DNA of 50,156 nucleotides, from IMG/VR virus record IMGVR_UViG_3300045988_128743. One strand, written 5' to 3'. This document shows, in pieces, positions 4,663-45,341 of the stretch. Source of the DNA: a virus. Under the pieces are notes generated by a model. The model was not told where the DNA came from, did no database searches, and saw nothing but the letters and a program-made list of their open reading frames with translations. The position numbers and the translations under genes were made by a program. The first letter of the stretch is position 1. Each line of letters begins with the position of its first letter.

Positions 4663-5250
4663 ATGGAAATCAAAAAAGAAAACCTATTGAAAGCCCTTAA
4701 TACAGGCTCTGACAGCGTTAAAGAAACAATCCTCGCTATTTTCCCCGAGTTAAAAGAAGAAGCGGTACAGAAAGCCGACAAACGCCCTGTAACGGAACGT
4801 ATAAAGACATTTGAGGATGCTTGCGAAGTTCTCGGTAATAACCACCCGTTTATACAAGCGTACAAATGCTGGGAAAATGACGGAGTAAACAATCAGACAG
4901 ATATTGACGCATACTTGAAACTCCGTATCATCTGCGAAGCTCTTAACGAGGGATGGGAGCCAAAATTCACAGAGGACGAGTGGCGTTATTATCCTTGGTT
5001 CTACCTATACACGCAGCAGGAGCTTGACGATATGGATGATGATGAAAAACAGGAACGACACATGATAGATACAGGCGATTATGAAACCGAATCTTGCGGC
5101 TTCGGCTTTGCGTGTTCGTATAGCGTTCCCTCGAATACGACTGCGGCCGTCGGCTCTCGCCTTTGCTTGAAAAACAGCGAACTCGCCACGTACTGCGGCA
5201 AACAGTTTATAAGCATTTGGGCTGATTTCAACCTTGTACGCCGCCGATAA
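4663..5250 (+). CDS. Remote DGR target protein 2 (contains VR2), 195 aa
   Basis: The C-terminal segment ESCGFGFACSYSVPSNTTAAVGSRLCLK is encoded by a 75-bp copy of the TR that differs only at TR adenines. Confidence 0.8.
   Translation: MEIKKENLLKALNTGSDSVKETILAIFPELKEEAVQKADKRPVTERIKTFEDACEVLGNNHPFIQAYKCWENDGVNNQTDIDAYLKLRIICEALNEGWEPKFTEDEWRYYPWFYLYTQQELDDMDDDEKQERHMIDTGDYETESCGFGFACSYSVPSNTTAAVGSRLCLKNSELATYCGKQFISIWADFNLVRRR
5094..5168 (+). repeat. DGR variable region VR2
   Basis: Gapless alignment to TR 39794-39868 (offset 34,700). By hand count there are 11 mismatches, all at TR adenines (11 of 17). Confidence 0.85.
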
Positions 5251-23870: not shown

Positions 23871-23885
23871 TGTCTGATGTATTGG

Positions 23886-24188: not shown

Positions 24189-24225
24189 ATAAACCGTTTT
24201 GCGGCTGTCTGCCGGGCGATTGTTA

Positions 24226-30131: not shown

Positions 30132-30659
30132 ATGGCAAAGAAACTTATCATGTCATGGTCTAAGTGTAAGATTGAAGTTGGCAAAACAGGAGCGTCAGAC
30201 GCTATGGCTGCTGAACTTTTCTCACTTGGTATCATCAAGGACAAAAGTACTTCCATGAGTACGGAAGATGGGGACACACTGACTGCAAAAGCTTCGGGCG
30301 GTGTCGTTGTTGCAGAGGAAGAGGGAGAGCCACAGGTAACTATTACCACCCGTATTATGGAAATGGATTTCGACACTGAAAACAAGCTTACCGGAGCTGC
30401 AAAATCAGGAGATTCAGGAAGCGAGGAGCTGACAGTAAAGACCAATGTTATCCCCGAAGATTTCTCCGTAAAAGTTACTCCTAAAAACATCGGAGCTACA
30501 GGTGTTAAAGTTAGACGTGCGCATATTTCATTCCGTCCCGGTTCATCCGAAGAGGAAGGACATTACGTTGATGTTACGTTCAAAATACTTGCTTGCGAAG
30601 ATGGTGAGCTTTACAAGAAGTTCAAGGTTCAGAGTACAGACTGGGCAGAAAAAGCCTAA
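30132..30659 (+). CDS. Major tail (tube) protein candidate
   Basis: 175 aa, the last gene before the G/GT chaperone pair and the tape measure. Confidence 0.55.
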   Translation: MAKKLIMSWSKCKIEVGKTGASDAMAAELFSLGIIKDKSTSMSTEDGDTLTAKASGGVVVAEEEGEPQVTITTRIMEMDFDTENKLTGAAKSGDSGSEELTVKTNVIPEDFSVKVTPKNIGATGVKVRRAHISFRPGSSEEEGHYVDVTFKILACEDGELYKKFKVQSTDWAEKA

Positions 30660-30720: not shown

Positions 30721-30805
30721 GGAGGGTTGGCAGAGCGGCTTAATGCACCTCATTGCTAACGAGGCGTGCGGAAACGTACCGGAGGTTCAAATCCTCCACC
30801 CTCCG
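30721..30805 (+). tRNA. tRNA-Ser (anticodon GCU), type II with long variable arm
   Basis: It has a 7-bp acceptor stem (GGAGGGT/ACCCTCC), D arm GCAG..., anticodon loop TTGCTAA (U33, GCT, A37), variable stem GTGCG-GAAA-CGTAC, T arm GGAGG-TTCAAAT-CCTCC and discriminator G. No CCA is encoded. There is one A-C mismatch at position 31-39. Confidence 0.8.
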
Positions 30806-30828
30806 CAAACGAATAAATATATTTCAGT

Positions 30829-31350
30829 ATGACAGAACAGAAACAAACCATAGAAAGCAAAGTTGCGGCGGCTATACTTGAAAAGCCTATTGCAACAATT
30901 GAATTGGAGGGGGTAAAATACAATATTGCACCACCTTCTATTTCCACGTTGATACTCGTGTCTGAAATAATTTCAACGCTTCCACAGGTTAATGATGTGC
31001 CAAAGGATAAAATAGTTTATTCTGCATTGCATTATGCGAAAGATTTCAAGCAACTCGGCGACATTGTTGCTGTGCTTATTTTAGGCGCAAAAGGATTGAC
31101 AGAAACCGTAACACGAAAAGTTGTCAAAAAGCGTTTCTTCGGGCTGATAAAAAGCGAAAAGGAGGAAATTATAACCATTGACAGAAAAGCAGAACTTTCA
31201 AAACTCGTGTTGGATAATATACGCCCGTCTGTTATGCTGAATATAATTATCCGAAGACTTAACGATTTGGAAATAGGAGATTTTTTCGGTATTACCACTT
31301 CCCTTGCAGAAGCCAACATTCTAAGTCCGACAAAGGAAGTGGAAAACTGA
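30829..31350 (+). CDS. Tail assembly chaperone (gpG-like)
   Basis: 173 aa, directly upstream of the tape measure. It contains the slippery heptamer near its 3' end. Confidence 0.7.
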   Translation: MTEQKQTIESKVAAAILEKPIATIELEGVKYNIAPPSISTLILVSEIISTLPQVNDVPKDKIVYSALHYAKDFKQLGDIVAVLILGAKGLTETVTRKVVKKRFFGLIKSEKEEIITIDRKAELSKLVLDNIRPSVMLNIIIRRLNDLEIGDFFGITTSLAEANILSPTKEVEN

Positions 31351-31580
31351 ATGACAGCATCTGGGCAACAGTCCTCGGAGTGGCAAAGACTTTCGGCGTA
31401 ACAGCGCAGGAGGCACTTTATGACATGAGTTATGTTAATGCCATAATGTACAGCAAAGCCGTGCCAATGTATGATGACAAACCATCAGAAGAAGACAAGC
31501 CTCTTTACGATGATACACTTGATGCAAACGACACGAGCAAATTCAATGATTTTGAAGACGAAGAAATTGTAAGAGTATGA
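30829..31580 (+). CDS. Tail assembly chaperone frameshift fusion (gpGT-like), -1 shift at 31281-31287
   Basis: 153 codons in frame 0 plus 97 codons in the -1 frame. The stop overlaps the tape-measure ATG as ATGA. Confidence 0.6.
31281..31287 (+). other. -1 programmed ribosomal frameshift slippery heptamer T-TTT-TTC
   Basis: In the G frame it reads GAT TTT TTC. The -1 frame is open from 31263 to 31580. Confidence 0.7.
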
Positions 31581-34500
31581 ACGACAACGGTAGAACAAAC
31601 TATTCGGTAAGCCTTGACACATCTGAATTGGAGGCTTCTGCTAAGAAAGTTATAAACACTTTCAAGACAATGGGCAATGACATAGAAAAAGAGGGAAAGC
31701 GGATTGACAATACATTCAAGAGTATTGGCGGCAAATCGCTTGTGGGTATCTCTATGAAAAGCCTTGGGGATGATGTCAAAAAAGCGAGAGCCGACATAGA
31801 ACAGTCCTTTATCCGTATCGACAAAATGAGCATGGAGGCTTTCGGCTCTATGTCATCAAAGGCACAACAACTTGCCAAGGACATACAGAACGATACCGTT
31901 ATGCTCAAACAGCTTGAAATGATGCAAACCGCCTTGAATGATACCTACGAAAAAGGCGGCGTATCTCTGAATGAATATATTACAGCACAGGCAAGGCTCG
32001 CAGTCCTGCATGAACAGGTAGAAAATGCTATCATTGAAAATGACAAGGCATTGAAAGCAGAAAATACAACAATGGAAATTGCAGAGGATAGTATCGCCTC
32101 CCTGCAAGCCAAAGTTTCGCTGCTTACGGTTGAATATATGCGCTTGTCGCAAGCCCAAAGAGAGGGCACAGAGGGGCAAGCCGTATTAAAGAATCTGACA
32201 GAGGTACAAAATAAGCTGCAACAGACGACAGCCTCCATGAACCAATACGCAAGAAGTGCCGGAACTAAATTTGACGGATTGAATTTCAGCGTACAGCAGA
32301 TCGCCCGTGAGCTCCCTGTTTTGGCAATGTCTCCGCAGATGTTCTTTTTAGCTATCAGCAATAACCTGCCGATTTTCACAGATGAAGTTGCTAAAGCAAG
32401 AAAAGAGTATCAACTGCTCACGGAAGCCGGGAAATCCGCTACTCCTGTATGGAAACGTGTCCTGTCTTCAATGTTCAGTTGGCAAACATTATTAGTTGTC
32501 GGCATAACACTTCTTACCGCTTATGGCGATGAGATTATTTCATGGGTCGGAAGCCTGTTCACAGCTAAAAAGGCTCTATCAGAAACATACGGAAGTCTTG
32601 AAGAATGGCAAAATAAGGTAGCAGAAAGTGCAGGAGAAACGCTGTCCGTTCTTGAAAAATTGTCTATGGGTTGGATAGAGCTTGGCGACAATATGGAAGC
32701 CAAAGAACAATACATCATAAACAACAAAAATGAAATAGACAAATTAGGTGTCGTTATCAATGACGTAAATGATGCGGAACGTGTCTTCAATTCAGGAAAG
32801 GATAGTTTTATTAGTGCTGTTATGGCAAAAGCACAGGCAGCAGCCACAATGGAACTTGCAGCGGAAGAATATAAGAAAGCATTGCAAAAAATGTTGGAAG
32901 CTGATGCGAAAGCTAAAGAGGGACCGTCTGCTGGAGATTATTTCAAGTCATTTATGGCTAACAGCGTGAGAGGAGAAGATATGTCCGGTACATTGTTGAA
33001 TGCTGATTTAAGTCCTGAAGCATACGCCAAAGAAGCTGAGGAAAAAATGAGGAAAGCCGGGGAAGATTATATGAAATCATTCTTCGAGCTTATCAAGAAA
33101 TCAGATGAATTGGGTAAAGAATATGCTGAAAAACTTGGAGCTGCAAACATTCAATCAACCGAAACAATGATAGCAGGTTCTGTGGAAGCCATCGAAGCCT
33201 CCATAGCCATTAAACAACAGGCTTTGAAGAAAGTTACCAACCGGGAAGATTATGCCAAAATTGAAGCACAGATAAAAGAGGAGCAAAAAAGATTGGATGC
33301 CATAAAAGGAACATCCGGGAATAAAAACGCTGAAAAGGAAGCGGAACAGGCAAGAAAAGCGTTGGAACAAGCGCACAATGAACTCATGAACCTACGTTCC
33401 CAAAATCAGCAAGAGGAAATCAATTTAATGGCAGACGGGGCAGAGAAAAAGCGCAAGCAACTCGAACTCGACTACCAAAAAGAGTATGCGGAAACACTTG
33501 CTCTCGAAAAGAAATGGATGAAGCTCGGCGGCGGTAAACTTTCAATGGAGCAACAGGTGGAAATATCCCGTAAGTACACAAATGCAGAAAACAAGTTCAA
33601 TTCCGGGATTGCCGCCCTTGAGGGTGGTTTCAGCCAAGAGGAACTGAATGCATCCATGAACAAATACCTTGCCGCATACGGAACTTACGTTGAAAAGAGG
33701 AATGCTATTATCGCACAGGCTACCGCAAACAAGGAAGGTAAAAACGAATGGGAGCAAAAATCCATAGATGAAGAGACCAAACGTGCCTTGTCTGAATTGG
33801 ATATAGAAGCCAACAAGACTACATCTGCCATAAGCCAGTTATTCGGCGATATGAGGGATAAAACACTTAACGACCTCCAGCAAATAAACGCACAGGGACA
33901 GGCGGCGTTGGCGTTTCTGAAATCGGGAGAATGGGACGAAGACAAAGGTAAACAGTTCGGAATATCACAAGAAACTTTTGAACTGTGGAGTAAATCTCCT
34001 GATAAGCTGAAAGATATATCTGATGCTTTACGGGACAACAAGGAGGCGGCAGATGAACTTCGCCCGGCATACGATAAAGTGGCTGACGGTTTGGAACGTA
34101 TGTTCAAAGCCGGGAATGATACCAAAAAGCTAAAGGAGGCTTTGGCTGATATTGAAGATGGGATGAACGAAATAATGCAGATAGGTTCGTTCCTTTCTGA
34201 CACGTTCTCAAATCTCGGAGAGGCTTTTGGTTCTGACGCTTTATCAGGAATTGCAGACGGTATCAACGTAGCTATGGATGCTGTAAACTCTGCCATGCAG
34301 GGAGCACAAGCCGGAGCAATGTTCGGACCTATCGGAGCTGCAGCTGGAGCCGCCATCGGTATGGTAAGTTCCCTCGCATCTGCAATAGCAAAAATCCATG
34401 ACAAGAAAAACGAAAAGCGAATACAACAGCTACAAGACCAAATAGATGCGCTTGATACCTCTTACGATAACTTGGGGCGTTCCATTGAAAAAGCATATTC

Positions 34501-35314
34501 AAAGGACGCTTCCAAACTTATTGAACAGAAGAACACCCTGTTAGAGAAGAAGAAAGTGCTTATCCAGCAGCAGATAGCGGAGGAAATGGATAAAAAGGAT
34601 TCTGATGATGGACGTATCAAAGAATGGCAGCAACAGATTGACGATATAAATAACCTCATTGAGGATAATAAAGAAAAAGCCAATGATGCAATCTTCGGGC
34701 AGGATATTCAAAGTGCCATTGATGACTTTGCACAGGCTTATGTAGATGCTTGGGCTGCAGGTGACGACAAGGTAAAGGCTTCCAAGGATTTGGTAAAGGA
34801 TATGATAAAACAGATGATAACCGAAGCCATGAAAGCCACTATAAGCCCTGATATGGAACGCTTACGAGAAACCATGAGGGGTTTTTGGTCTGATGGATTC
34901 ATCAGCGATTGGGAAAAGGATTACCTCGAAAGAATGGCTGCGGACATGACAAACAGGCTTGAGAACCAGTACGGATGGGCTGATGACTATTTCAAGGAAG
35001 AGGAAGAAGATCCGGAACGTGAGGGGACGCAAAAGGGTATAGCCACTGCATCGCAGGAAAGCGTGGATGAAAACAATGCCAGACTTACAACCATGCAAGG
35101 GCATACGTACACACTTATGGAAGGTCAAAAAGAATTGATAACCATCGGAAACAGGATGCTTGAACACCTTGCCGGAATTGAAAGTAACACATCTACAACC
35201 AATGAAAGGCTGAATGAAACCAACGCCAAAATTGATAATGTAGATAAGAAAATTAGCCGGATGTCCGGGACACTTGAAGATATTAATACAAAGGGATTGA
35301 AACTTAAAAAATAA
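31577..35314 (+). CDS. Tape measure protein
   Basis: 1245 aa and coiled-coil rich. It has hydrophobic/glycine-zipper segments (LPVLAMSPQMFFLAISNNLPIF; GAMFGPIGAAAGAAIGMVSSLASAIA) and follows G/GT. Confidence 0.85.
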   Translation: MNDNGRTNYSVSLDTSELEASAKKVINTFKTMGNDIEKEGKRIDNTFKSIGGKSLVGISMKSLGDDVKKARADIEQSFIRIDKMSMEAFGSMSSKAQQLAKDIQNDTVMLKQLEMMQTALNDTYEKGGVSLNEYITAQARLAVLHEQVENAIIENDKALKAENTTMEIAEDSIASLQAKVSLLTVEYMRLSQAQREGTEGQAVLKNLTEVQNKLQQTTASMNQYARSAGTKFDGLNFSVQQIARELPVLAMSPQMFFLAISNNLPIFTDEVAKARKEYQLLTEAGKSATPVWKRVLSSMFSWQTLLVVGITLLTAYGDEIISWVGSLFTAKKALSETYGSLEEWQNKVAESAGETLSVLEKLSMGWIELGDNMEAKEQYIINNKNEIDKLGVVINDVNDAERVFNSGKDSFISAVMAKAQAAATMELAAEEYKKALQKMLEADAKAKEGPSAGDYFKSFMANSVRGEDMSGTLLNADLSPEAYAKEAEEKMRKAGEDYMKSFFELIKKSDELGKEYAEKLGAANIQSTETMIAGSVEAIEASIAIKQQALKKVTNREDYAKIEAQIKEEQKRLDAIKGTSGNKNAEKEAEQARKALEQAHNELMNLRSQNQQEEINLMADGAEKKRKQLELDYQKEYAETLALEKKWMKLGGGKLSMEQQVEISRKYTNAENKFNSGIAALEGGFSQEELNASMNKYLAAYGTYVEKRNAIIAQATANKEGKNEWEQKSIDEETKRALSELDIEANKTTSAISQLFGDMRDKTLNDLQQINAQGQAALAFLKSGEWDEDKGKQFGISQETFELWSKSPDKLKDISDALRDNKEAADELRPAYDKVADGLERMFKAGNDTKKLKEALADIEDGMNEIMQIGSFLSDTFSNLGEAFGSDALSGIADGINVAMDAVNSAMQGAQAGAMFGPIGAAAGAAIGMVSSLASAIAKIHDKKNEKRIQQLQDQIDALDTSYDNLGRSIEKAYSKDASKLIEQKNTLLEKKKVLIQQQIAEEMDKKDSDDGRIKEWQQQIDDINNLIEDNKEKANDAIFGQDIQSAIDDFAQAYVDAWAAGDDKVKASKDLVKDMIKQMITEAMKATISPDMERLRETMRGFWSDGFISDWEKDYLERMAADMTNRLENQYGWADDYFKEEEEDPEREGTQKGIATASQESVDENNARLTTMQGHTYTLMEGQKELITIGNRMLEHLAGIESNTSTTNERLNETNAKIDNVDKKISRMSGTLEDINTKGLKLKK

Positions 35315-35319: not shown

Positions 35320-35808
35320 ATGGATGAGCTTATAAATAACACTTGGGAACAATGGAAAGCTGCCAAATCAGCGGCTCAATCCTTATGCAATGAAACAGCC
35401 CGTTACGACATGGCTCAAAAGCTCGGGGCGTGCGCCATGTTCAAGGGGACTGAAAGCCTTGAAGATTTGGTTAAGTTGATGTTCACTCCAAGAGGAATTG
35501 AGTTTATGACAAGATTCCATTTCCCGGACATTGATACTTTTCGAAAATTCAAGCCTATGTATCCTGAAAGATACGGGGTCTATATTGATTGCGGCGAAAT
35601 AAGCCTGTCAGAAGCGAGAAAAGTTTTTTTGGTAGGAAACACCGTTGCGAGATTGAAGTACCGGGACATCGCAAGCAATCGGCTTTATTTAATGTGTGGT
35701 GCTGTTGCCCATATAGACGCAGGAGGTTATGCTGTTGTCAGAGTTGAAAAAGATGATGTTTCAAAAATAGAATTCATGGAGAAAGACCATGCAAGTGTGC
35801 TGTTATGA
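35320..35808 (+). CDS. Hypothetical tail-module protein
   Basis: 162-aa ORF after the tape measure. Confidence 0.5.
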   Translation: MDELINNTWEQWKAAKSAAQSLCNETARYDMAQKLGACAMFKGTESLEDLVKLMFTPRGIEFMTRFHFPDIDTFRKFKPMYPERYGVYIDCGEISLSEARKVFLVGNTVARLKYRDIASNRLYLMCGAVAHIDAGGYAVVRVEKDDVSKIEFMEKDHASVLL

Positions 35809-36731
35809 AAGGTAGGTTATTCATAGACGGAAATGATGCGTTCACGGAATACGGCGTATTTGTTGAACAATACGGGTATAAGGATCTTGTACAAGCTCCA
35901 CCGTTCAAAAGCATAGACAGCACGGAATGGGACGAGTTTGACGGGGCTGAATATGATTTGTCCGAACCTGTCCTTGACAGCAAGACATTTGCGGTAGCTT
36001 TCTGTATTACAGATATTACATCAGCAAGCGCCCTGTTCGAATTGCTGTCTGATAAGGCATACCATACGTTCGACTTCCGGGAACTTGGAAAGACATACAG
36101 GCTACGACTTACGAGCAACGGTTCTCTATCATCAAAGGTACGACTTGGCAACCTGTCTTTGAGCTTTGCTGATGACTTCCCAACTCCCGATGAAGCGGAA
36201 CCATATCCTGTTGGGGCAGCTGATGTAAGACAATCCGGATATGAGCTTGATGATATAGACTTCTCCCGGTTCGGGGTTTACATATTAAACGGAACGGATG
36301 ACAATGTCTTAAAAGCTCCCGATGTTCGCCCCAATCTGACTATAAACACGAAAGGAGAAGCCGGGGTTAGCTATGATGATGAAATAGTTATGTACAAACC
36401 TAAAGACGTGGTCGTTAAGATGCTTATCAGAGCAGCGAATGTGACTGTCTTTTGGGAACGGTGGAACGCCCTGTTTACAGCCCTTATCAAGCCAGATATA
36501 CGGCGTTTGTATATTGATAAGACCGTAGAGGAGTTCGATTGTTTTTACAGGAAATGTAGCGTTACAAAGTTCGATATTCTCCGAAACGGCAGAGTATGGT
36601 GTGAGTTTTCCGTTACATTGACTTTTACCAATTCAAGACCTACCGGGGACTATGCCTTATTGGTAACGGAAGATGACGAACTCGTATTGACGGAAGATGG
36701 CGAAAGCTACATTTTATTAAGGAACGATTAA
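35805..36731 (+). CDS. Distal tail protein (Dit)-like
   Basis: 308 aa, called from position and an N-terminal pattern (MKGRLFIDGNDAFTEYGVFV...). Confidence 0.45.
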   Translation: MKGRLFIDGNDAFTEYGVFVEQYGYKDLVQAPPFKSIDSTEWDEFDGAEYDLSEPVLDSKTFAVAFCITDITSASALFELLSDKAYHTFDFRELGKTYRLRLTSNGSLSSKVRLGNLSLSFADDFPTPDEAEPYPVGAADVRQSGYELDDIDFSRFGVYILNGTDDNVLKAPDVRPNLTINTKGEAGVSYDDEIVMYKPKDVVVKMLIRAANVTVFWERWNALFTALIKPDIRRLYIDKTVEEFDCFYRKCSVTKFDILRNGRVWCEFSVTLTFTNSRPTGDYALLVTEDDELVLTEDGESYILLRND

Positions 36732-37749: not shown

Positions 37750-37898
37750 TAGTTTCAATTTTCATATCGCTAAAGAAGCGATTGCGTTCATGGGCAAACG
37801 CCCGGAAGCAAAAGAAACTGAGGATGAATACCAAATCTTCGGTAATGTTCATTTCATCAAAAGGTAAAACAGTTTTCAAATTCTTAAACAATAAATGA
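37746..37898 (+). CDS. Possible 50-aa basic ORF bridging 37432-37749 and the DGR target
   Basis: It shows ATGA overlaps at both ends (37746-37749 and 37895-37898). Translation: MIVSIFISLKKRLRSWANARKQKKLRMNTKSSVMFISSKGKTVFKFLNNK. Confidence 0.3.
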   Translation: MIVSIFISLKKRLRSWANARKQKKLRMNTKSSVMFISSKGKTVFKFLNNK

Positions 37899-39343
37899 CT
37901 ATGGCACTGACAAGCGAAGAAGAAAGCAAGGTAAGACAAATTATCGAGGCTTTTGAGGGCGGCAAGCGATTGATTGACCTGCCCGAAGTTGAGGGAACAA
38001 ATCCCTTTGAATTGATATGTGAGGTTCTTGATACAGACGGGGAAAGTAAAAAGGCTGCTCTTGCAACATTGCTCCCGTATTTGGAGGAACAGTGTATGTA
38101 CGGAATTGAATATGACATAACGGTATCATCGCCGGATGTTACCCGTATAGGTAATATGGCTCTGCATAAGAGTTTGCCTATCCATAACCGTATGAAAGGA
38201 TGTTTATTGGCTGATGACGGGACAGTAAACGAATACCTTAACCCAAAAGACTGGCGAGGACAAACACGTGACGGCTCACGTGGGCAGGTCATGGTTGAAC
38301 TTCCTATGTATTATCGTAAATTTGAAACAGACGGAAACAAACGCCGTGTGAAATTATCGGAATATCCCCTGCCCGGCTATCATCAGGTTAAGAAAAAGTA
38401 TGTTTCAGCCTATGAAGCAACCGTACAGCGTTCTACAACAACGCTATGCTCAGTTGTAAACACAGATGCAGATTATAGAGGAGGAAATAATAATGCAGAA
38501 TGGGACGGAACATACCGTACGCTTACAGGAAGACCTGCGACACAGATTTCACGTACCAATTTTCGAAACTATGCCCGTAAACGTAAATCATCCACAAAGG
38601 AATGGAACTGTATGACATACGATATTCAGAAAGACCTCTTGTGGCTGTTTGTGGTTGAGTTTGCGACACTTAATTCGCAAAAGGCTGTTAATGCATCACT
38701 CACTGCAGAAGGTTACAGACAGGGCGGTCTTGGCGATGGTGTTTCAACTCTTGAAGGTGGAAAATGGAATACTTTCAACGGATATTATCCATTTATCCCT
38801 TGCGGATATACAGACGAACTTGGAAACGGTACAGGAGAGGTTGAATTTTCAATGCCGACCGAATACGATGCTAACATTAAGAAAGTCAAAGTTCCACGTT
38901 ATCGTGGTATTGAAAATCCTTTCGGTCATATTTGGCAATGGACGGACGGTATTAATGTACGAATCTCTCCAAACAGCCCGACAGGAGACGGATTGAGCAA
39001 GGTATTTGTTACTGATAACCCGGAATATTTCAATGACAGTAACTATAACAACATGTCCCATGTCGGAAATGAAGCCCGTACAGAGGCTTATGTTAAATCT
39101 GTCATCTTCGGAGAGGGAGGCGAAATAATGCCGGATGTAGTTGGAGGCGGTTCTACTACCTATTTCTGTGACTACCATTACACGAACATTCCAACATCTG
39201 AAACACTCCGTGGGATGCTGTTCGGCGGTGCTGCGAATGACGGTGCGGGTTGCGGCTTCGGCTCTGCGTATTCGTATTGCGTTCCCTCGCATACGTCTGC
39301 GACCTTCGGCTCTCGCCTTTGCTTTATCCCCGTAACAGCGTAA
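37895..39343 (+). CDS. DGR target protein 1 (C-type-lectin/FGE-like C-terminus with VR1), putative receptor-binding protein
   Basis: 482 aa. The C-terminus LFGGAANDGAGCGFGSAYSYCVPSHTSATFGSRLCF is encoded by VR1, and the gene lies in the tail module. Confidence 0.85.
   Translation: MTMALTSEEESKVRQIIEAFEGGKRLIDLPEVEGTNPFELICEVLDTDGESKKAALATLLPYLEEQCMYGIEYDITVSSPDVTRIGNMALHKSLPIHNRMKGCLLADDGTVNEYLNPKDWRGQTRDGSRGQVMVELPMYYRKFETDGNKRRVKLSEYPLPGYHQVKKKYVSAYEATVQRSTTTLCSVVNTDADYRGGNNNAEWDGTYRTLTGRPATQISRTNFRNYARKRKSSTKEWNCMTYDIQKDLLWLFVVEFATLNSQKAVNASLTAEGYRQGGLGDGVSTLEGGKWNTFNGYYPFIPCGYTDELGNGTGEVEFSMPTEYDANIKKVKVPRYRGIENPFGHIWQWTDGINVRISPNSPTGDGLSKVFVTDNPEYFNDSNYNNMSHVGNEARTEAYVKSVIFGEGGEIMPDVVGGGSTTYFCDYHYTNIPTSETLRGMLFGGAANDGAGCGFGSAYSYCVPSHTSATFGSRLCFIPVTA
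39216..39324 (+). repeat. DGR variable region VR1
   Basis: 109-bp gapless alignment to TR 39760-39868 (offset 544). By hand count there are 18 mismatches, all at TR adenines (18 of 26). Confidence 0.9.
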
Positions 39344-39380
39344 CACGCCCTATGTTTAACTTCTAACTATTTGTAAGGAT

Positions 39381-39731
39381 ATGGAAGAATTGGTTGATGA
39401 TGGCTCGTTGGATTTCTTGAAAATCCCTCGTGATGAAAATAACAGGAGTTTTAACTGCGATGAAACGACACAGTCAAAACTCGTAAATACGACATTTTGG
39501 GTTGTTGATTTTATAGAGGATGTCCCCTCCCGTTTTAGTAAAGCGAAAGGTGTAAAAGGACAGACACTTGTAAAAATAAAGACTAATAAAGACAGCCCGG
39601 AATCGGAAGCAAAGAAATTCTTCACGGGTTCAGCTGACATCTTGTATGTTTTGAAGAAGATTAAGGAAATGAATAAGTTTCCTCGCCGGGTAACACTAAG
39701 AGGAAACGGTAACAGATTTTATTTTGAATAA
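39381..39731 (+). CDS. DGR accessory-position ORF (not Avd-like)
   Basis: 116 aa between the target and TR, where Avd normally sits. The sequence looks beta-rich (TTFWVVDFIEDV, QTLVKIKT, RRVTLRGNGNRFYFE) rather than a basic four-helix bundle. Confidence 0.5.
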   Translation: MEELVDDGSLDFLKIPRDENNRSFNCDETTQSKLVNTTFWVVDFIEDVPSRFSKAKGVKGQTLVKIKTNKDSPESEAKKFFTGSADILYVLKKIKEMNKFPRRVTLRGNGNRFYFE

Positions 39732-39759
39732 ATGATACAGGTTGGTCGTTCTTGTGGGG

Positions 39760-39868
39760 TGCTGTTCAGCGGTAATGCGAATAACGGTGCGAATTGCGGC
39801 TTCGGCTATGCGAATTCGAATAACGTTCCCTCGAATACGAATGCGAACATCGGCTCTCACCTATGCTT
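39760..39868 (+). repeat. DGR template region (TR)
   Basis: Adenine-rich AAY-codon template (in-frame reading LFSGNANNGANCGFGYANSNNVPSNTNANIGSHLCL), 148 nt upstream of the RT gene. Confidence 0.9.
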
Positions 39869-40015
39869 AAAAATTGGTTCAAAGGAAAAGTATAAAACAA
39901 TACAAACGGAACGACGACCTTGCCTCTTGGCAAAAAATTTCAAGTAACCCTAAAAGTGTTGGTAGGAACGCCTGTTGTATGGGCTACCGAAGACTCTGAT
40001 TAAGAAAGCAAAGCT

Positions 40016-41047
40016 ATGAAGCGTATAGGAAGCTTATACGAAAAGATAATTTCTGTAGAGAACCTGCGGCTTGCCGATGAAAAGGCTCGCCGTGGGGAAA
40101 CTCGCACTTATGGTGTCCGGGTTCACGACAAGAACCGGGAAGCAAACATACAATCCCTGCATGAAGCGTTGAGGTTGAAAACATTCAGGACATCGCCTTA
40201 TGATGTATTCACGATTTATGAACCAAAGGAGCGTGTCATTTATCGTTTGCCGTACTATCCTGACAGAATAGTTCATCATGCGATTATGAATGTTCTTGAA
40301 CCTATATGGACGAAAGTATTTACCCACAATACGTTTTCCTGTATCAAAGGACGTGGTATTGAGGGATGTGCCCGGCACGTTGACAAGGTTATAAGAAAAT
40401 ACAAAGGGAAGCCCCTGTATTGCCTTAAAATAGACATCAAGAAATATTATCCGTCAATCAAGCATCATGTGCTTAAACGGATAATACGCAAAAAGATTAA
40501 GGACAAAGACCTTTTATGGCTTCTTGATGAAATCATAGACAGTGCCGAGGGTCTGCCTATCGGAAACTATCTGTCGCAATATTTGGCTAACTTGAACCTT
40601 GCCTACTTTATGCACAACGTAAACGAGGTTCTGAAAATAGACTGCGAGGAATATGCAGATGATATGACTTTTTACAGTGAAAGCAAGGAAACTTTATACA
40701 GCGCATTTCACGGGTTTATAAAGCCGTATATAGAAAATGAACTTGAATTGCAAGTAAAAGGCAATTATCAAATATTTCCGATAGCAGAAAACAAATATGA
40801 CAAGCACGGACGGGCTTTGGACTATGTCGGGTACAAATTCTACAGAAAACAGAAACTAATGCGAAAGAGCATAAAGAAAAACTTTTGCCGTACTGCATCC
40901 CGGCTCAACAAACAGCAGCCACCACTTGATGTAATGGCATACAAACAGGCGGTAGCCCCTTGGTTGGGATGGGCACAGCACAGCAATAGCAAAAACTTAT
41001 TACGAACAATCATTAAAAAAGAGTATTATGAAACGTGCATTTTATGA
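40016..41047 (+). CDS. DGR reverse transcriptase
   Basis: 343 aa. It has RT motifs including the DGR-type motif 4 LPIGNYLSQ, the YADD catalytic box (EYADDMTFY), and the thumb-proximal LDYVGYKF. Confidence 0.9.
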   Translation: MKRIGSLYEKIISVENLRLADEKARRGETRTYGVRVHDKNREANIQSLHEALRLKTFRTSPYDVFTIYEPKERVIYRLPYYPDRIVHHAIMNVLEPIWTKVFTHNTFSCIKGRGIEGCARHVDKVIRKYKGKPLYCLKIDIKKYYPSIKHHVLKRIIRKKIKDKDLLWLLDEIIDSAEGLPIGNYLSQYLANLNLAYFMHNVNEVLKIDCEEYADDMTFYSESKETLYSAFHGFIKPYIENELELQVKGNYQIFPIAENKYDKHGRALDYVGYKFYRKQKLMRKSIKKNFCRTASRLNKQQPPLDVMAYKQAVAPWLGWAQHSNSKNLLRTIIKKEYYETCIL

Positions 41048-41789
41048 TGTCAAGCCACAGGCTTTAGAAGCTGTTGGCAATGGTAACCATCTTTATCGTT
41101 GGGATATTCAAGAGGAGGAAATACTGTCTGAAATCGTTCAGGAACAAAGCGATGAACCGATAGAGCCTGGCAAGAGAGTACAATATTCCTGCTGCGAGGC
41201 TACAATTATCGGCACACCGACATACGACAAGTGTGTAAAAGCTGTAATAAGGGATAAATACACAGCGGAACAGGAAATGGCTTTGGTAAACAAGTATAAC
41301 TCTTATCAGAACAGTGTAACGATTGACAGTGCCGGGGTTGATGAATATAACGACTATCTGAAATATATTTTCAATGCGAAGATGGTTGTAAAGCGTGACC
41401 TTGAACTTGAAGAAGCATTGGTTATTGCAAAGGAAAAACTATTCAACAAAATAAGTGAATATGACAAATCCGATGAAGTAAACGGGTTCTTGTTGAACGG
41501 AGAGCTATTTTGGTTAGACCGTGAAACACGTATGTCGGTGTCATATTCCACATCGCAAGAAAAAGCCCTTGGTAATGAAACGACAACAATTTGGCTTGGG
41601 GGCAAGTCTATGGTGCTTCCGTGCGAAATTGTTTTAGGGTTGCTTTCACAGCTTGAGGTGTATGCGAAAAAATGCTATAACAAAACAGCAGAGCATAAAG
41701 CGGCTGTCGATAAGTTGAAGACATTGGAAGATGTGGAGAGCTACGATTATAAAAGCGGTTATCCTGAAAGATTGAATTTAGAGGTATGA
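41028..41789 (+). CDS. Hypothetical tail-module protein (possibly DUF4376-like)
   Basis: 253 aa, overlapping the RT 3' end by 20 nt. Confidence 0.45.
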   Translation: MKRAFYDVKPQALEAVGNGNHLYRWDIQEEEILSEIVQEQSDEPIEPGKRVQYSCCEATIIGTPTYDKCVKAVIRDKYTAEQEMALVNKYNSYQNSVTIDSAGVDEYNDYLKYIFNAKMVVKRDLELEEALVIAKEKLFNKISEYDKSDEVNGFLLNGELFWLDRETRMSVSYSTSQEKALGNETTTIWLGGKSMVLPCEIVLGLLSQLEVYAKKCYNKTAEHKAAVDKLKTLEDVESYDYKSGYPERLNLEV

Positions 41790-42289
41790 TATTAGTAGCA
41801 GTTTCATTTATTATCATCGCACTTTATGTAGGTGCGATGATATTCAAGTTGGGAATACCATATTCCATATCAGATACATATTACAGTCTGGAACATAAGT
41901 TTTGGTTTGGGTTTACAATGTGTGCGACCGCATTATTACTGATGCCAGCCATATTGGAAAGGACACCGGATAATTTGCAATTCTTAGCGTTCCTTATGTG
42001 CGCTGCGTTATGTTTTGTGGGGGTATCACCTAATTTCAAAAAAGGTTTGGATAGACCCGTACATATAACCTCAACAACAATATGCGCCGTGTGCAGCCAG
42101 TTATGGGTCGGGTTGGTATTTACCACTTGGATGTATCTTATTTGGCTTATATGGCTGGCTTATGTGATTATAATGATAAAAAGACTATGGAACGGTCATC
42201 TTATTAACAGCTTCATCTATACAAAGCCATTGTTTTGGGGCGAAATTACAGCGTTCCTAACAGTCTATATTGGATTAATTTTGAAATGA
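41786..42289 (+). CDS. Polytopic integral membrane protein
   Basis: 167 aa with at least 5 hydrophobic helices (for example ILVAVSFIIIALYVGAMIF, FLAFLMCAALCFVGV, WMYLIWLIWLAYVIIMI). Confidence 0.55.
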   Translation: MILVAVSFIIIALYVGAMIFKLGIPYSISDTYYSLEHKFWFGFTMCATALLLMPAILERTPDNLQFLAFLMCAALCFVGVSPNFKKGLDRPVHITSTTICAVCSQLWVGLVFTTWMYLIWLIWLAYVIIMIKRLWNGHLINSFIYTKPLFWGEITAFLTVYIGLILK

Positions 42290-42290: not shown

Positions 42291-45200
42291 ATGATAACAC
42301 TATATTTCAACGACACATCGCTTGATGTTCACGAAAGCGAGGAAAGTTATCGCTACCGTAGCATTATGGGGGAACACAGCCTTACGCTGAAATTTTCCCT
42401 GCCGGAATATATAGAATTCCCTATCGGAACATGGTGCGAGTATATGGCGGTAAAATACACTCTTGAAGTCCCGGCTAACTTCAAGAAGCACGGCAATCGT
42501 AATTTTGAGTACACGCTGCTCATGCAGAGCGTACAGGTTCAGCTGGGAAGATACAAGCTCCGTAATACAGTGGATAAGCGGCTCAAATTTTCCATGTGCG
42601 CCACACCAAAGGAATTTCTTCAAACAATAGTGGATAACCTTAATCAGCGTGATAGCGGTTGGAGTGTCGGGGATTGTATCGTATCTACCGAAAAAACTAT
42701 ACCGTTTGACCATTCGTACATAGACGCTGCGCTGCAGAGTGTGGCAGATACATTCAATACAGAGTGGGAAATTGTCGGTAAGGTCATTCATCTGCGTAAG
42801 GTTGAATATTTCAAGGACGACCCGTTACCTTTGTCATACGGCAAGGGTAACGGCTTCGTGCCGGGACTTGGACGATCTACTGAATCAGAAAGCCGACCGA
42901 TTGAAATAATGTTTGCACAGGGAGGTTCAAAGAACATAGACCGTTCTAAATATGGTGCGCCGGAACTGCTGTTGCCAAAATCACAGACCTTGGAATACGA
43001 GGGGCGCACATATATTTCAGATGCAGAGGGATATTCCATCCAACGCAAAGACAAACCTCTTAAATACAAAACAGAGGATAGTTTGGACTGTTCAGAAATA
43101 TACCCCTCACGTGTGGGAACTGTCAGCAAGGTTGAAGTTATTGATGAAGCTAATAATTTCTATGATGTTATAGATGACAGCATACCTGAAAACCTTGATT
43201 ACAACGACTATCTGATTGAGGGTGAGAATATGACTATCATCTTCCAAAGCGGTATGCTTGCCGGGAACGACAAGGCGTTTGAGCTAAAATACAAACACGC
43301 CGAAAGACGATTTGAAATTGTCCCACAGGGAATAGACGGTCAGACTATGCCCGGCGGTGTATATGTTCCTCGTGTTGGCGATACATACGCTATTTTCGGC
43401 TGTATGTTGCCGGATGCTTATGTATGTGACAACGCTTCCCAAACGGGTGCTTCATGGGATATGTTCCGGGAAACGGCAAAAGCATTGTACGAGAAAGAGG
43501 ATGTTAAATTCACTTTTACAGGTGAGTTGCAGGGGATGTGGGCTAAACGTAATTGGCTTAAAGTCGGTGGCAAGTTAGTCGTTGGAGGATATGTGCTGTT
43601 TTCAGATAATCAGTTTGCGCCTGAAGGTATTCCGATACGAATAACGGGAATAAAGGACTATCCGACCTCTCCATATTCTCCAACCATTGAACTGTCTAAC
43701 GATGTACAGGGCAAAAGCCTGTCATCTACCATTGATGAAATACAGAACGGTAATGTCATCGTGGAGGAAAACGACAAGGAGATTATAAGGTTCACGAAAA
43801 GACGTTTCCGTGATGCTGTCGAGACAATGAAGATGCTTGAAAATGCCCTGCTGGATAACTTCACCAACTCTATAACACCGATAACGGTTCAGACAATGGC
43901 TATGCTTGTCGGTGATGAAAGCCTTCAGTTCCGTTTCGTTGACAGCTCTCTCCGTCCTATTCAGTACCATATAACCTACAACCAGGAAACAAAGCAGCTT
44001 ACAGCTCCGGCAACAATACTCCAGCACATGACGCTCGGTGTGAACACTATTACTTCAGACCGAAACTCAACTGAGTACAAGCATTGGAACATGAAGGCAT
44101 ATACAAGCCCTGTCATGGACCAATTGGAGCAGAAGTATTATTTCTATGCCAAAGTTCCGACAGGTTCAGGAAGCGGAGAATTCGTATTGTCTCCTACCGC
44201 TATCGGCATGGATGATGTTTCGGGGTATTACCACTTGCTCGTAGGCTTGCTGAATAGTGAGTATGACGGTGAACGGTCATTTGTAACCCTATACGGTTTC
44301 ACTGAGGTTCTTCCTGGGCGAATAACCACTGACAAGATTGTAAGTCCTGACGGGAAGACGTATTTCGATGTATCAAATGGAGAAATTGGAGGTAATATCA
44401 AAATTAAAGCTGGCTCTACTGGATATGAAAATCTTGAAGATAAACCTGATTTAAGTATATATGCGACAAATTCAGAATTAGATATTCTTGACGATAGAAT
44501 TTCTGCACAAGTAACACGAGTAGATAATTTAACCAACAGAATAGATACAGCTGGGTGGATAACTACAGCAGATGCAAACAAATTATATGCTTCAAAAACT
44601 TTAGAGAACGGACAAACCATTATTTCATATATAAATCAGACTGCAGGAAGTACTACAATTCATTCTTCTAAAATAAATTTGCAGGGAGCTGTTTCGTTTA
44701 CATCATTGAACAGTTCATTACAGAGTACGATTAATGGAAAAGCCGATTCTTCTTCCCTCGGTACACTTGCATATAAAGAGGCTGTAGAGGCTGCACAACT
44801 TGGAAGTACAATTGTTGTTGGAGGGTATTTGAACACTGATTATATCAAAGTAAAGCGAATAGATGCACAAGGGGCACGTGTGGGAGGTTTTACAATAGAC
44901 AGTGGACGACTTTATTGGAAAGCATACGATTACTTGGGAGGAGATTCCAGGTCATTGAAGTTAGGAGTATCAAAATATAATACAGATGGTATAGTTGATG
45001 TTAATTTTAATGCAGCTACAACTGGAAGATTCGGGGTAAAAGCTGTTGGATCAAATGCTGGAGGAGCTGCAATCTATGCATCAACAGGTACGTTAACAGA
45101 TCCAGGAAGCAGTATGACATACGCTGGATTTTTCGTAGGTCCAACAAGTGTGAGAGGAGAGCTGGATAGTGATTATTGTGCCTCAAAAGGATTTAGGTTT

Positions 45201-45341
45201 ATAACAGGTCGTAATTCAAATGGAACTTATACATATAACGAAGGAGTAAACTGGGGAAACGGAGCAGCGCAAAATCCAGACCTCGATAAGATACGACTTA
45301 TCGTAAGAGGAGGTATAATTGTTGGATATACAGGAGAATAA
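42291..45341 (+). CDS. Large tail tip / tail fibre protein (Tal-like N-terminus, fibre-like C-terminus)
   Basis: 1016 aa in the tail module. The C-terminal third is compositionally distinct, with coiled/fibre-like repeats. Confidence 0.65.
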   Translation: MITLYFNDTSLDVHESEESYRYRSIMGEHSLTLKFSLPEYIEFPIGTWCEYMAVKYTLEVPANFKKHGNRNFEYTLLMQSVQVQLGRYKLRNTVDKRLKFSMCATPKEFLQTIVDNLNQRDSGWSVGDCIVSTEKTIPFDHSYIDAALQSVADTFNTEWEIVGKVIHLRKVEYFKDDPLPLSYGKGNGFVPGLGRSTESESRPIEIMFAQGGSKNIDRSKYGAPELLLPKSQTLEYEGRTYISDAEGYSIQRKDKPLKYKTEDSLDCSEIYPSRVGTVSKVEVIDEANNFYDVIDDSIPENLDYNDYLIEGENMTIIFQSGMLAGNDKAFELKYKHAERRFEIVPQGIDGQTMPGGVYVPRVGDTYAIFGCMLPDAYVCDNASQTGASWDMFRETAKALYEKEDVKFTFTGELQGMWAKRNWLKVGGKLVVGGYVLFSDNQFAPEGIPIRITGIKDYPTSPYSPTIELSNDVQGKSLSSTIDEIQNGNVIVEENDKEIIRFTKRRFRDAVETMKMLENALLDNFTNSITPITVQTMAMLVGDESLQFRFVDSSLRPIQYHITYNQETKQLTAPATILQHMTLGVNTITSDRNSTEYKHWNMKAYTSPVMDQLEQKYYFYAKVPTGSGSGEFVLSPTAIGMDDVSGYYHLLVGLLNSEYDGERSFVTLYGFTEVLPGRITTDKIVSPDGKTYFDVSNGEIGGNIKIKAGSTGYENLEDKPDLSIYATNSELDILDDRISAQVTRVDNLTNRIDTAGWITTADANKLYASKTLENGQTIISYINQTAGSTTIHSSKINLQGAVSFTSLNSSLQSTINGKADSSSLGTLAYKEAVEAAQLGSTIVVGGYLNTDYIKVKRIDAQGARVGGFTIDSGRLYWKAYDYLGGDSRSLKLGVSKYNTDGIVDVNFNAATTGRFGVKAVGSNAGGAAIYASTGTLTDPGSSMTYAGFFVGPTSVRGELDSDYCASKGFRFITGRNSNGTYTYNEGVNWGNGAAQNPDLDKIRLIVRGGIIVGYTGE

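What the first reader, a model, noticed from the sequence alone, without database searches (positions are those of the whole stretch)
37895..41047. Complete DGR cassette (target-VR1 / accessory ORF / TR / RT) between Dit-like and Tal-like tail genes
TR 39760-39868 and VR1 39216-39324 align without gaps over 109 bp. I count 18 mismatches, all at TR adenines (18 of 26), and no non-adenine differences inside the block.

The TR adenines sit in AAY codons of the target frame. TR reads LFSGNANNGANCGFGYANSNNVPSNTNANIGSHLCL and VR1 reads LFGGAANDGAGCGFGSAYSYCVPSHTSATFGSRLCF.

The RT (40016-41047) carries the DGR-type motif LPIGNYLSQ and YADD. The whole cassette, together with several small ORFs, lies between a Dit-like gene (35805-36731) and the 1016-aa tail protein (42291). 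This placement looks like an insertion into the baseplate/fibre region.
Basis: partly seen in the sequence, partly recalled or inferred. Interest (0 to 1): 0.75.

Follow-up and report, generated by a model that had tools for sequence, protein, structure and literature searches.

The report
Active two-target phage DGR lacking Avd
This is a working diversity-generating retroelement in a temperate gut Bacteroidales phage: it rewrites the tip of a tail protein and also a small early-region protein 34.6 kb away, and it carries a small unrelated protein where the usual helper Avd would be.

Summary
TR 39760-39868 and VR1 39216-39324 align without gaps over 109 bp, with 18 mismatches, all at TR adenines (18 of 26; hypergeometric p about 1e-14). 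The RT is DGR-type: its best solved relative is the Bordetella phage bRT, and it has IGNYLSQ and YADD.

Three things go beyond the finding.

1. A second variable repeat, VR2 (5094-5173), lies in a 195-aa early-region protein. It has 12 mismatches, all at TR adenines. In independent assemblies the TR is identical in 9 of 9 copies, VR1 shows 5 alleles and VR2 shows 6.

2. The 116-aa accessory ORF is not Avd. It has no Pfam hit and a beta-rich, OB-like predicted fold. Its family sits next to this RT clade in 77 of 80 viral loci, in two gene orders.

3. The RNA around TR keeps the known architecture. A covarying duplex (39740-39752 with 39908-39919), a hairpin and an A-run resemble the Bordetella "cPRT Stop". 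The hairpin is the 5' end of an Rfam RT-17 match.

The placement between tail genes is conserved across the phage family, so it is not shown to be a recent insertion. Overall this is an ordinary DGR in kind, with an uncharacterised helper protein and a remote non-structural target.

The parts
37895..39343 (+). Target gene 1, a tail protein of 482 aa (probably 480 aa starting at 37901). VR1 encodes its C-terminus.
   Evidence: ORF. Matches PHROG 5302 'tail protein' at E 4e-139. At least 7970 homologous clusters exist, and one source names a member 'tail collar fiber protein'. No Pfam or PDB sequence hit.
39210..39324 (+). VR1, the variable repeat. The A-only core is 39216-39324.
   Evidence: 18 mismatches to TR, all at TR adenines. 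Five distinct alleles among 7 copies from other assemblies that carry the identical TR.
39308..39324 (+). Candidate IMH at the 3' end of VR1 (GGCTCTCGCCTTTGCTT).
   Evidence: It differs from the TR copy at two fixed positions (G and T opposite TR A). These two positions differ in more than 90% of 34 unique TR/VR pairs, against 30-80% at the other A sites. The same 17-mer sits at the 3' end of VR2.
39381..39731 (+). Accessory gene, 116 aa, pI 9.0, in the position where avd usually lies. It is not Avd; the predicted fold is OB-like.
   Evidence: PHROG 19665, function unknown. No hit in Pfam, NCBIfam, PADLOC or PDB sequences. AlphaFold2 with a diverse alignment gives pLDDT 78 and topology b1-b2-b3-helix-b4-b5. 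Linked to this RT clade in 77 of 80 viral loci, in two gene orders, and in three more distant loci.
39740..39752 (+). Upstream strand (U) of a long-range RNA duplex. Its last paired base is 39752, one unpaired base (39753) before the 5' boundary of TR.
   Evidence: It pairs with 39908-39919. Across 17 distinct sequences 94.8% of cells are paired, 11 of 17 pairs change on both sides, and 0 of 500 shuffles reach this.
39754..39873 (+). TR, the template repeat. The VR1 core is 39760-39868. VR2 uses 39794-39873.
   Evidence: Identical in 9 of 9 copies from independent assemblies.
39852..39868 (+). Candidate IMH*, the TR-side copy (GGCTCTCACCTATGCTT).
39874..40015 (+). Spacer RNA region between TR and the RT gene (142 nt). 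It contains duplex strand S (39908-39919), a hairpin (39920-39933), an A-run (39934-39937), and the Rfam RT-17 match (39916-40012).
   Evidence: Rfam RF03020 scores 45.5 bits against a gathering score of 40.4. Covariation.
40016..41047 (+). DGR reverse transcriptase, 343 aa.
   Evidence: Best PDB match is 8ub7_A, the BPP-1 bRT, at E 4.9e-32 over the full length; the next best is a group II RT at 3.7e-12. Carries IGNYLSQ and YADD. R73 and I182 align with bRT R74 and I181.
4663..5250 (+). Target gene 2: an acidic (pI 4.7) 195-aa protein with no obvious N-terminal signal sequence (judged by eye), encoded in the early region.
   Evidence: PHROG 11581, function unknown. 6750 homologous clusters, whose variation is concentrated at the VR codons. 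The same early-region context recurs in relatives.
5094..5173 (+). VR2, the remote variable repeat, 34.6 kb upstream of TR. It includes the IMH-like 17-mer at 5152-5168.
   Evidence: 80 bp against TR 39794-39873 with 12 mismatches, all at TR adenines, p 1.1e-8. Six distinct alleles among 8 copies.
35805..36731 (+). Context: Dit-like tail gene upstream of the cassette.
   Evidence: PHROG 6305 'tail protein'. Lies downstream of the 1245-aa tape-measure ORF 31577-35314, after a 162-aa ORF. No Pfam or PDB hit.
42291..45341 (+). Context: Tal-like tail protein, 1016 aa.
   Evidence: Pfam PF06605 Prophage_tail scores 32.6 bits against a cut-off of 31.3.

Best explanation
This is an active diversity-generating retroelement of a temperate Bacteroidales siphophage (integrase at 49-1218).

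Proposed mechanism. A transcript running from the 3' end of the accessory gene through TR and the 142-nt spacer folds so that the 13 nt just upstream of TR (39740-39752) pair with spacer 39908-39919. A hairpin (39920-39933) and an A-run follow directly. The rest of the spacer forms the RT-17 stem.

The RT (40016-41047), probably together with the basic 116-aa accessory protein acting in place of Avd, primes on the spacer. It copies TR from its 3' end, miscopying adenines, and stops at the upstream duplex. That stop sets the 5' limit of TR/VR homology at 39754.

The cDNA then replaces VR1 at the C-terminus of a tail protein, giving about 1.5e14 possible peptides from 10 AAY and 4 single-A codons. 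It also replaces VR2 in an early-region 195-aa protein, using only TR 39794-39873 and giving about 7e8 peptides. The IMH-like 17-mer at the 3' end of each VR, which differs at two fixed positions from the TR copy, gives direction. A 14-nt A-free block at each 5' end gives the homology anchor.

What is shown: the repeats, the adenine-only pattern, RT clade membership, allele diversity under an invariant TR, the RNA covariation, and the linkage of the accessory gene to the RT.

What is inferred: the priming site, the stop function of the duplex, the cofactor role of the accessory protein, receptor binding by target 1, and any function of target 2.
For: Adenine-only mismatches for VR1 (18 of 18, p 9e-15) and VR2 (12 of 12, p 1e-8).

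The TR is identical in 9 of 9 copies from independent viral and metagenome assemblies. VR1 has 5 alleles among 7 copies and VR2 has 6 among 8, with identical flanks.

In six related prophage loci (five with an identical TR, the sixth differing at 2 of about 150 positions shown) the VRs fall into three alleles.

Across 34 unique TR/VR pairs of the clade, mismatches run at 30-80% at TR-A sites and about 0 elsewhere.

The RT matches bRT over its full length at E 4.9e-32, against 3.7e-12 for a group II RT. It scores far below NCBIfam cut-offs for group II (93 against 300) and retron (49 against 235) models. The signature [I/V/L]GxxxSQ motif is present. The bRT residues R74 and I181, which promote adenine mutagenesis (PMC7826257), are conserved.

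Rfam RT-17 lies between TR and the RT, and no group II intron RNA is found in the window.

The duplex plus hairpin covary: 94.8% of cells paired, 11 of 17 pairs with double changes, 0 of 500 shuffles as good, and 32-53% paired in the slid controls. This matches the avd:Sp duplex, stem-loop and unpaired A's of the BPP-1 'cPRT Stop' (bioRxiv 10.1101/2023.10.23.563531).

An accessory homologue lies within 2 kb of the RT in 77 of 80 viral loci (RT identity 61-99%), either between VR and TR or downstream of the RT. It also lies between VR and TR in three loci whose accessory proteins are only 29-40% identical.
Against: No read-level data were available, so activity is shown for the lineage and not for this copy.

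The collection scans used a pattern with N only at TR-A positions. Absence of non-A differences in the 75-nt core of those hits is therefore by construction; only the flanks and the window's own repeats are free tests.

I chose the register of the RNA duplex by eye from the same sequences, which favours the observed pairing over the slid controls.

The accessory model is of moderate confidence (pLDDT 78) and has no significant PDB match (best E 0.2). Its role as an RT cofactor is untested.

A C-type-lectin fold could not be shown for either target.
Confidence: 0.9

Rival explanations
1. The 116-aa ORF is not a DGR component. It is an ordinary phage gene, for example a tail-assembly or ssDNA-binding protein, that travels with the cassette by synteny. 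On this reading the DGR lineage works with the RT and RNA alone.
For: No biochemical evidence links it to reverse transcription. Wu et al. 2018 (PMC5758913) warn that genes shared among related phage DGRs may be phage genes, and report that 29% of DGRs have no accessory gene. LoVEphage, whose TR is 86% identical, has no such gene.
Against: The gene stays within 2 kb of the RT in two different gene orders: VR-acc-TR-RT and VR-TR-RT-...-acc. It also keeps its position in loci where the accessory protein is only 29-40% identical and the RT 47-53% identical. It is basic like Avd (pI 9.0). Every family member whose context was examined was next to a DGR RT.
Confidence: 0.2
2. The cassette in this particular genome is a recently inactivated relic. 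The VR differences record past activity only.
For: No read-level heterogeneity could be examined. Truncated chimeric accessory-RT proteins exist in public data, which shows that deletions do occur in this locus.
Against: All ORFs are intact. The TR is identical to that of eight other copies. The catalytic YADD and the IGxxxSQ motif are intact. The RNA elements are intact and pair as in relatives.
Confidence: 0.06
3. The TR/VR similarity comes from ordinary duplication or gene conversion between paralogous tail-fibre tips, and the RT belongs to a group II intron or retron.
For: A generic RVT_1 hit is all that Pfam gives. NCBIfam lists group II and retron models as weak hits.
Against: All 30 mismatches fall on TR adenines (p 1e-14 and 1e-8). 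All NCBIfam hits are far below their cut-offs. bRT is the best structural relative by 65 bits. No intron or retron RNA was found, and RT-17 was found instead.
Confidence: 0.01

Closest known systems
Bordetella phage BPP-1 DGR (mtd-avd-TR-brt)
   Same: The gene order is the same: target(VR), small basic accessory, TR, spacer of about 140 nt, RT. Mutagenesis is adenine-specific and targets AAY codons. The RT carries the IGxxxSQ motif and the R74/I181 equivalents. The 3' ends show IMH/IMH*-like fixed differences. An upstream:spacer duplex with a stem-loop and A's resembles the cPRT Stop. The primary target is a tail protein.
   Different: The accessory protein is not Avd: no PF05635 hit and a beta-rich OB-like model instead of a four-helix bundle. 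RT identity to bRT is only moderate. There is a second, remote target. The target has no detectable sequence similarity to Mtd.
Avd-less DGR lineages and alternative accessory genes (HRDC, MSL, CH1; Lineage 3/3A of Wu et al. 2018, PMC5758913)
   Same: Like Lineage 3 it lacks avd, and the host range is Bacteroidales. A small conserved non-Avd gene lies in the cassette.
   Different: The 116-aa protein does not fit the published descriptions. CH1 is 160-169 aa and acidic. MSL is MutS-like and always accompanied by avd. HRDC has a Pfam domain. It could be one of that paper's unnamed 'PAG' candidates, but I could not check this because no supplementary sequences were held.
Bacteroides prophage DGRs with TaqVP-like variable proteins ('domain group 2', bioRxiv 10.1101/2024.11.15.621889)
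   Same: The DGR is prophage-borne in Bacteroidales, and the variable protein has no other identifiable domains and is presumed to be a tail-fibre receptor-binding component.
   Different: Membership was not tested here because no structural comparison with TaqVP was possible. The five DGRs studied experimentally in that paper all encode Avd-like proteins.
Phage DGRs with two targets (tentaclins, PMC10743442) and DGRs with remote targets (Legionella, Treponema)
   Same: One TR serves two VRs in proteins with different scaffolds.
   Different: The second target here is not an Ig-domain virion protein next to the cassette. It is a 195-aa acidic protein in the early (excisionase, recombination, replication) region, 34.6 kb away. 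Large surveys state that they cannot detect remote targets (PMC8144416).
Rfam RF03020 RT-17 RNA
   Same: 39916-40012 matches the full model above the gathering score, as do relatives.
   Different: Rfam lists it only as an sRNA motif near RT genes. The long-range pairing of the segment just 5' of its first hairpin with the segment upstream of TR is not part of the model.

Membership tests
Diversity-generating retroelement (DGR) | Reverse transcriptase of the DGR clade with the signature motif [I/V/L]GxxxSQ instead of QGxxxSP | tested here: met
   IGNYLSQ at aa 182-188. Best PDB relative is bRT (8ub7_A, 114 bits, full length), against 49 bits for a group II RT. The motif definition comes from PMC7826257.
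Diversity-generating retroelement (DGR) | A TR/VR repeat pair whose differences fall at TR adenines | tested here: met
   VR1 18 of 18 and VR2 12 of 12 mismatches at TR-A.
Diversity-generating retroelement (DGR) | VR inside a protein-coding target, with adenines placed in AAY codons so that no stop codons arise | tested here: met
   10 AAY codons in the target frame, and 27 of 30 TR adenines at codon positions 1 or 2.
Diversity-generating retroelement (DGR) | Invariant TR with variable VR among related genomes (ongoing mutagenic retrohoming) | tested here: met
   TR identical in 9 of 9 copies. VR1 has 5 alleles among 7 copies and VR2 has 6 among 8. Three VR alleles occur across six related loci with identical or near-identical TRs. 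Within-sample heterogeneity was not tested.
Diversity-generating retroelement (DGR) | IMH at the 3' end of VR, distinct from IMH* in TR | tested here: inconclusive
   There are two fixed VR-versus-TR differences in a conserved GC-rich 17-mer at both VRs. Both lie opposite TR adenines, so selection on Arg/Leu codons cannot be separated from an IMH role. The downstream hairpin is only 3-4 bp.
Diversity-generating retroelement (DGR) | Structured spacer RNA downstream of TR with an upstream:spacer duplex (cPRT Stop) | tested here: met
   Covariation and Rfam RT-17. The stop function itself is inferred by analogy with BPP-1.
Diversity-generating retroelement (DGR) | Variable protein with a C-type-lectin (or Ig) fold that displays the VR | not testable with these tools
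   No Pfam hit and no PDB sequence or profile hit for either target.
Avd (accessory variability determinant, Pfam PF05635) | Sequence membership in the Avd / S23-like family | tested here: not met
   No Pfam hit for the ORF or for any of 39 diverse family members at E up to 1. No Avd chain appeared among the PDB profile hits. No Avd hit in any of the roughly 36 other window ORFs scanned.
Avd (accessory variability determinant, Pfam PF05635) | Four-helix-bundle protomer | tested here: not met
   The AlphaFold2 model (pLDDT 78; 82-90 over most of residues 31-116) has five main strands and one main helix.
Avd (accessory variability determinant, Pfam PF05635) | Small basic protein encoded between the target and TR | tested here: met
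   116 aa, pI 9.0, at 39381-39731.
OB-fold nucleic-acid-binding proteins | Five-stranded barrel with a helix between strands 3 and 4, and structural similarity to known OB folds | tested here: inconclusive
   The topology fits. Foldseek against the PDB gives nothing significant (best E 0.2), though the weak hits are mostly OB folds such as DUF35, AB5 B-subunits, Teb1 and SSB. BFVD gives weak hits to phage ssDNA-binding proteins at E about 1e-2.
Group II intron or retron RT | Score above the curated family cut-off, and an associated intron or msr-msd RNA | tested here: not met
   TIGR04416 scores 93 bits against a cut-off of 300. The St85 retron model scores 49 against 235. No such RNA is found in the window.

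The most novel reading that the evidence does not exclude
This Bacteroidales phage DGR lineage has replaced Avd with an unrelated, OB-like RNA- or ssDNA-binding cofactor while keeping the BPP-1-type RNA architecture. It uses one TR to diversify the tail receptor-binding protein and also a non-structural, probably cytoplasmic early-region protein. That second target would be a hypervariable intracellular binder, for example one acting against host defence or in host takeover. This would extend phage DGR function beyond tropism switching.
Probability: 0.3. Interest if true: 0.75.

Novelty: new variant of a known kind. Interest (0 to 1): 0.5.

Why it matters
Phage DGRs in gut Bacteroidales are common, so the cassette as first described is ordinary. 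Two points could matter to specialists.

First, Avd is essential in the only DGR studied biochemically, and how Avd-less DGRs work is an open question (Wu et al. 2018). This locus offers a concrete candidate replacement: a widespread, conserved, basic 116-aa protein that stays beside the RT in two gene orders. It also comes with an RNA whose stop-duplex architecture is conserved. The question therefore becomes directly testable with three components.

Second, the same TR diversifies a small early-region protein 34.6 kb away. Contig-limited surveys cannot see this class of target. It hints that phage DGRs may also diversify proteins that are not part of the virion.

Tried and rejected
- Searching the annotated phage collection with the 11-kb region found only the TR itself (86% identity in LoVEphage-type phages). 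A tblastn search with the accessory protein found nothing there.
- The first accessory structure, built from a shallow alignment, was too poor to use (pLDDT 56).
- Foldseek against the PDB gave no significant match for the better model.
- The BFVD top hits are 'reverse transcriptase' proteins of 324-602 aa that contain an accessory-like domain. I did not take these as evidence of fusion. The accessory-RT proteins I could actually read (P0158, P0166, P0167, P0183) are truncated accessory N-termini joined to RT middle or C-terminal parts, so they are deletions or misassemblies.
- Global RNAduplex of the upstream region against the spacer was uninformative (z about 0). Only the targeted, register-fixed covariation test worked.
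- The search for related loci with the diverse accessory alignment failed because it had no conserved block.
- The exact-pattern scan of species-representative genomes found nothing.
- The promoter and terminator scan was at chance level.
- A short hairpin downstream of both VRs (GCGTAACACGC and GCGAACTCGC) is too weak to call.
- PADLOC gave nothing for target 2, its neighbours or the accessory protein.
- No supplementary sequences for CH1 or the PAG candidates were held, so those could not be compared.


Full report
**Observation.** The repeat pair is exactly as described. TR 39760-39868 and VR1 39216-39324 (offset 544) align without gaps over 109 bp. There are 18 mismatches, every one at a TR adenine (A>G 7, A>T 6, A>C 5; 26 A in the block), and no other difference. 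The chance of 18 of 18 falling on A is 9e-15. Homology runs 5' to 39754/39210. The one non-A difference there (39215) is private to this window, because two close relatives have the TR base.

**The RT.** ORF 40016-41047 matches the Bordetella phage bRT (PDB 8ub7_A) over its whole length at E 4.9e-32. I identified that chain as bRT from D138, I181 and Q187, which match the residue numbering in PMC7826257 and in bioRxiv 10.1101/2023.10.23.563531. The next best match is a group II RT at 3.7e-12. The RT falls far below the NCBIfam cut-offs for group II and retron RTs. It carries IGNYLSQ, the DGR signature [I/V/L]GxxxSQ, and YADD. The two bRT residues shown to promote adenine mutagenesis, R74 and I181, align with R73 and I182. 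No intron or retron RNA is present in the window.

**A second target.** A scan of the window with the TR, ignoring A positions, found VR2 at 5094-5173. It matches TR 39794-39873 over 80 bp with 12 mismatches, all at TR adenines (p 1e-8). VR2 lies inside ORF 4663-5250, which encodes a 195-aa acidic protein (PHROG 11581, unknown function; no Pfam, NCBIfam or PADLOC hit).
- The gene sits between an HTH_17/excisionase-like gene, a 303-aa gene and a YqaJ/RecE-like exonuclease, downstream of the integrase at 49-1218. This is the early region of a temperate phage.
- The same context recurs in a prophage integrated next to mnmE.
- In an unrelated larger phage, a 65%-identical homologue sits among DNA methyltransferases, a PAPS-reductase-like gene and a T7 Gp5.9-like gene.
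- A profile comparison shows that the two targets share only the 45-residue VR stretch, so their scaffolds differ.
- In the family alignment, variation is concentrated at the AAY-derived codons.

**Activity.** Pattern scans of viral and metagenome collections recovered further copies. The TR is identical in 9 of 9 copies. VR1 shows 5 alleles among 7 copies and VR2 shows 6 among 8, with identical flanks. The pattern allowed variation only at A positions, so only the flanks are an independent check. An unconstrained test comes from six prophage loci that share the same accessory protein. Five of them carry an identical TR and the sixth (L004) differs at two positions. Their VRs fall into three alleles that differ at TR-A sites. 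Across 34 unique TR/VR pairs of the RT clade, mismatch frequency is 30-80% at TR-A sites and about zero elsewhere.

**3' and 5' boundaries.** Two adenines near the 3' end (39859 and 39863) behave differently from the rest. The VR carries G and T there in more than 90% of pairs. This gives a constant VR-side 17-mer, GGCTCTCGCCTTTGCTT (39308 and 5152), against the TR-side GGCTCTCACCTATGCTT (39852). I read this as a candidate IMH/IMH* pair, but selection on the Arg and Leu codons could produce the same pattern. Each VR begins with a 14-nt A-free block (39754-39767 for VR1 and 39794-39807 for VR2), a plausible 5' homology anchor.

**The accessory gene.** ORF 39381-39731 (116 aa, pI 9.0) occupies the avd position but is not Avd.
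- It has no hit in Pfam, NCBIfam, PADLOC or PDB sequences, either alone or as a 39-member diverse profile.
- No Avd was found in any of the roughly 36 other window ORFs scanned, most of them under 320 aa.
- The family comprises 702 clusters at 90% identity and 103 representatives at 50%.
- AlphaFold2 with the diverse alignment gives pLDDT 78 and the order b1-b2-b3-helix-b4-b5, which is an OB-like topology.
- Foldseek finds nothing significant in the PDB, and the weak hits are mostly OB folds. BFVD gives weak hits to phage ssDNA-binding proteins.
- The linkage to the RT is strong. Among 80 viral loci with RT identity 61-99%, 77 have a homologue within 2 kb of the RT, and two of the three exceptions are truncated.
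- Two architectures occur: VR-acc-TR-RT, and VR-TR-RT followed by the accessory gene 0.4-1.9 kb downstream.
- Three loci whose accessory proteins are only 29-40% identical keep the VR-acc-TR-RT order with adenine-only mismatches.
- The protein does not fit the published alternative accessories. CH1 is 160-169 aa and acidic. MSL is MutS-like and accompanied by avd. HRDC is a recognised domain. Wu et al. note an Avd-less lineage restricted to Bacteroides and its relatives.

**The RNA.** Rfam RT-17 matches 39916-40012 above its gathering score, and it also matches the closer relatives. Comparing loci, the 13 nt just upstream of TR (39740-39752) pair with spacer 39908-39919, with one bulged base. 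A 5-bp hairpin (39920-39933) and an A-run follow immediately. On 17 distinct sequences, 94.8% of cells are paired, 11 of 17 pairs change on both sides, no shuffle out of 500 reaches this, and sliding the partner by 1-3 columns drops pairing to 32-53%. I set the register by eye, which biases the slid control but not the double changes (for example CG 8, UA 8, GC 1 at one pair). This arrangement mirrors the BPP-1 'cPRT Stop', an avd:Sp duplex followed by a short stem-loop and unpaired adenosines. It also explains why TR/VR homology ends at 39754. The priming nucleotide was not identified.

**Placement.** The order TMP, 162 aa, Dit-like, two or three small ORFs, target, accessory, TR, RT, one or two ORFs, Tal-like is conserved in the six related loci examined. 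RT-clade members occur in Alistipes, Prevotella, Phocaeicola, Muribaculaceae and other Bacteroidales genomes. The cassette is therefore a stable part of this phage group's tail module, with a tail-protein family as its target. It is not a demonstrable recent insertion.

**What could not be settled.** The function of the 195-aa protein is unknown. It is also unknown whether the accessory protein is required.

**Verdict.** The finding is real and correctly interpreted as a DGR. In kind it is a familiar element of gut Bacteroidales phages. It departs from the textbook system in three ways: a non-Avd accessory family, a remote non-structural second target, and an RNA motif (RT-17) that can now be tied to a conserved stop-duplex architecture.

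Noticed in passing
window 6849-6929 (+): Rfam c4-2 RNA (RF02944, c4 antisense RNA clan) scores 67.4 bits against a gathering score of 41. It lies between the RecE-like exonuclease gene and the helicase gene. This may be a phage immunity or antisense regulator.
   Followed up: no
window 30721-30806 (+): A tRNA-Ser(GCT) gene lies inside the tail module, between ORFs 30132-30659 and 30829-31350. The related viral contig L010 also carries a tRNA.
   Followed up: no
window 41786-42289 (+): A 167-aa, very hydrophobic protein (apparently multi-pass membrane, judged by eye) is wedged between the DGR and the Tal-like gene. It has no family hit. Five of the six related loci L002-L007 have no ORF of this kind there; L006 has an unexamined 106-aa ORF at that position. 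It looks like a moron-type addition.
   Followed up: partly
window 39769-39869 and L001 4001-4100 (Bacteroides phage LoVEphage MW660583): The TR is 86% identical at the nucleotide level to the TR region of LoVEphage, BI-TP1 and PV4-TP1. Nothing else in the 11-kb query matches. Their RT is only about 33% identical, and they have no homologue of the 116-aa gene. The TR/VR-encoded module seems to be shared across different DGR RT clades.
   Followed up: partly
proteins P0158, P0166, P0167, P0183; BFVD hits A0A8S5RXI3, A0A8S5RML5, A0A8S5MQF5: Public protein sets contain chimeras of an accessory N-terminus joined to a middle or C-terminal part of the RT, so TR and the RT N-terminus are deleted. BFVD also holds 'reverse transcriptase' proteins of 324-602 aa with an accessory-like domain. 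These could be recurrent deletions, misassemblies or true fusions; this remains unresolved.
   Followed up: partly
L097 6001-6585 and neighbours: A 65%-identical homologue of the VR2 protein sits in a different, larger phage among DNA methyltransferases, a PAPS-reductase-like gene, Dam and a T7 Gp5.9-like gene. This is an anti-restriction or host-takeover type of neighbourhood.
   Followed up: partly
window 39337-39347 and 5178-5187: A short hairpin motif lies about 10-15 nt downstream of both VRs (GCGTAACACGC after VR1, GCGAACTCGC after VR2) but not after TR. It is also present after the VR of L002. The stems are only 3-4 bp and the folding energy is weak.
   Followed up: partly
window about 22300-25400 (- strand): A block of minus-strand ORFs (190 aa with DUF2786, 159 aa with DUF7659, 100 aa, 380 aa) coincides with reversed GC and AT skew in an otherwise plus-strand genome.
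   Followed up: no
L095 1-2556: A near-identical prophage is integrated directly downstream of the host mnmE/trmE gene, with the integrase at the junction. This suggests the attachment site of this phage group.
   Followed up: no
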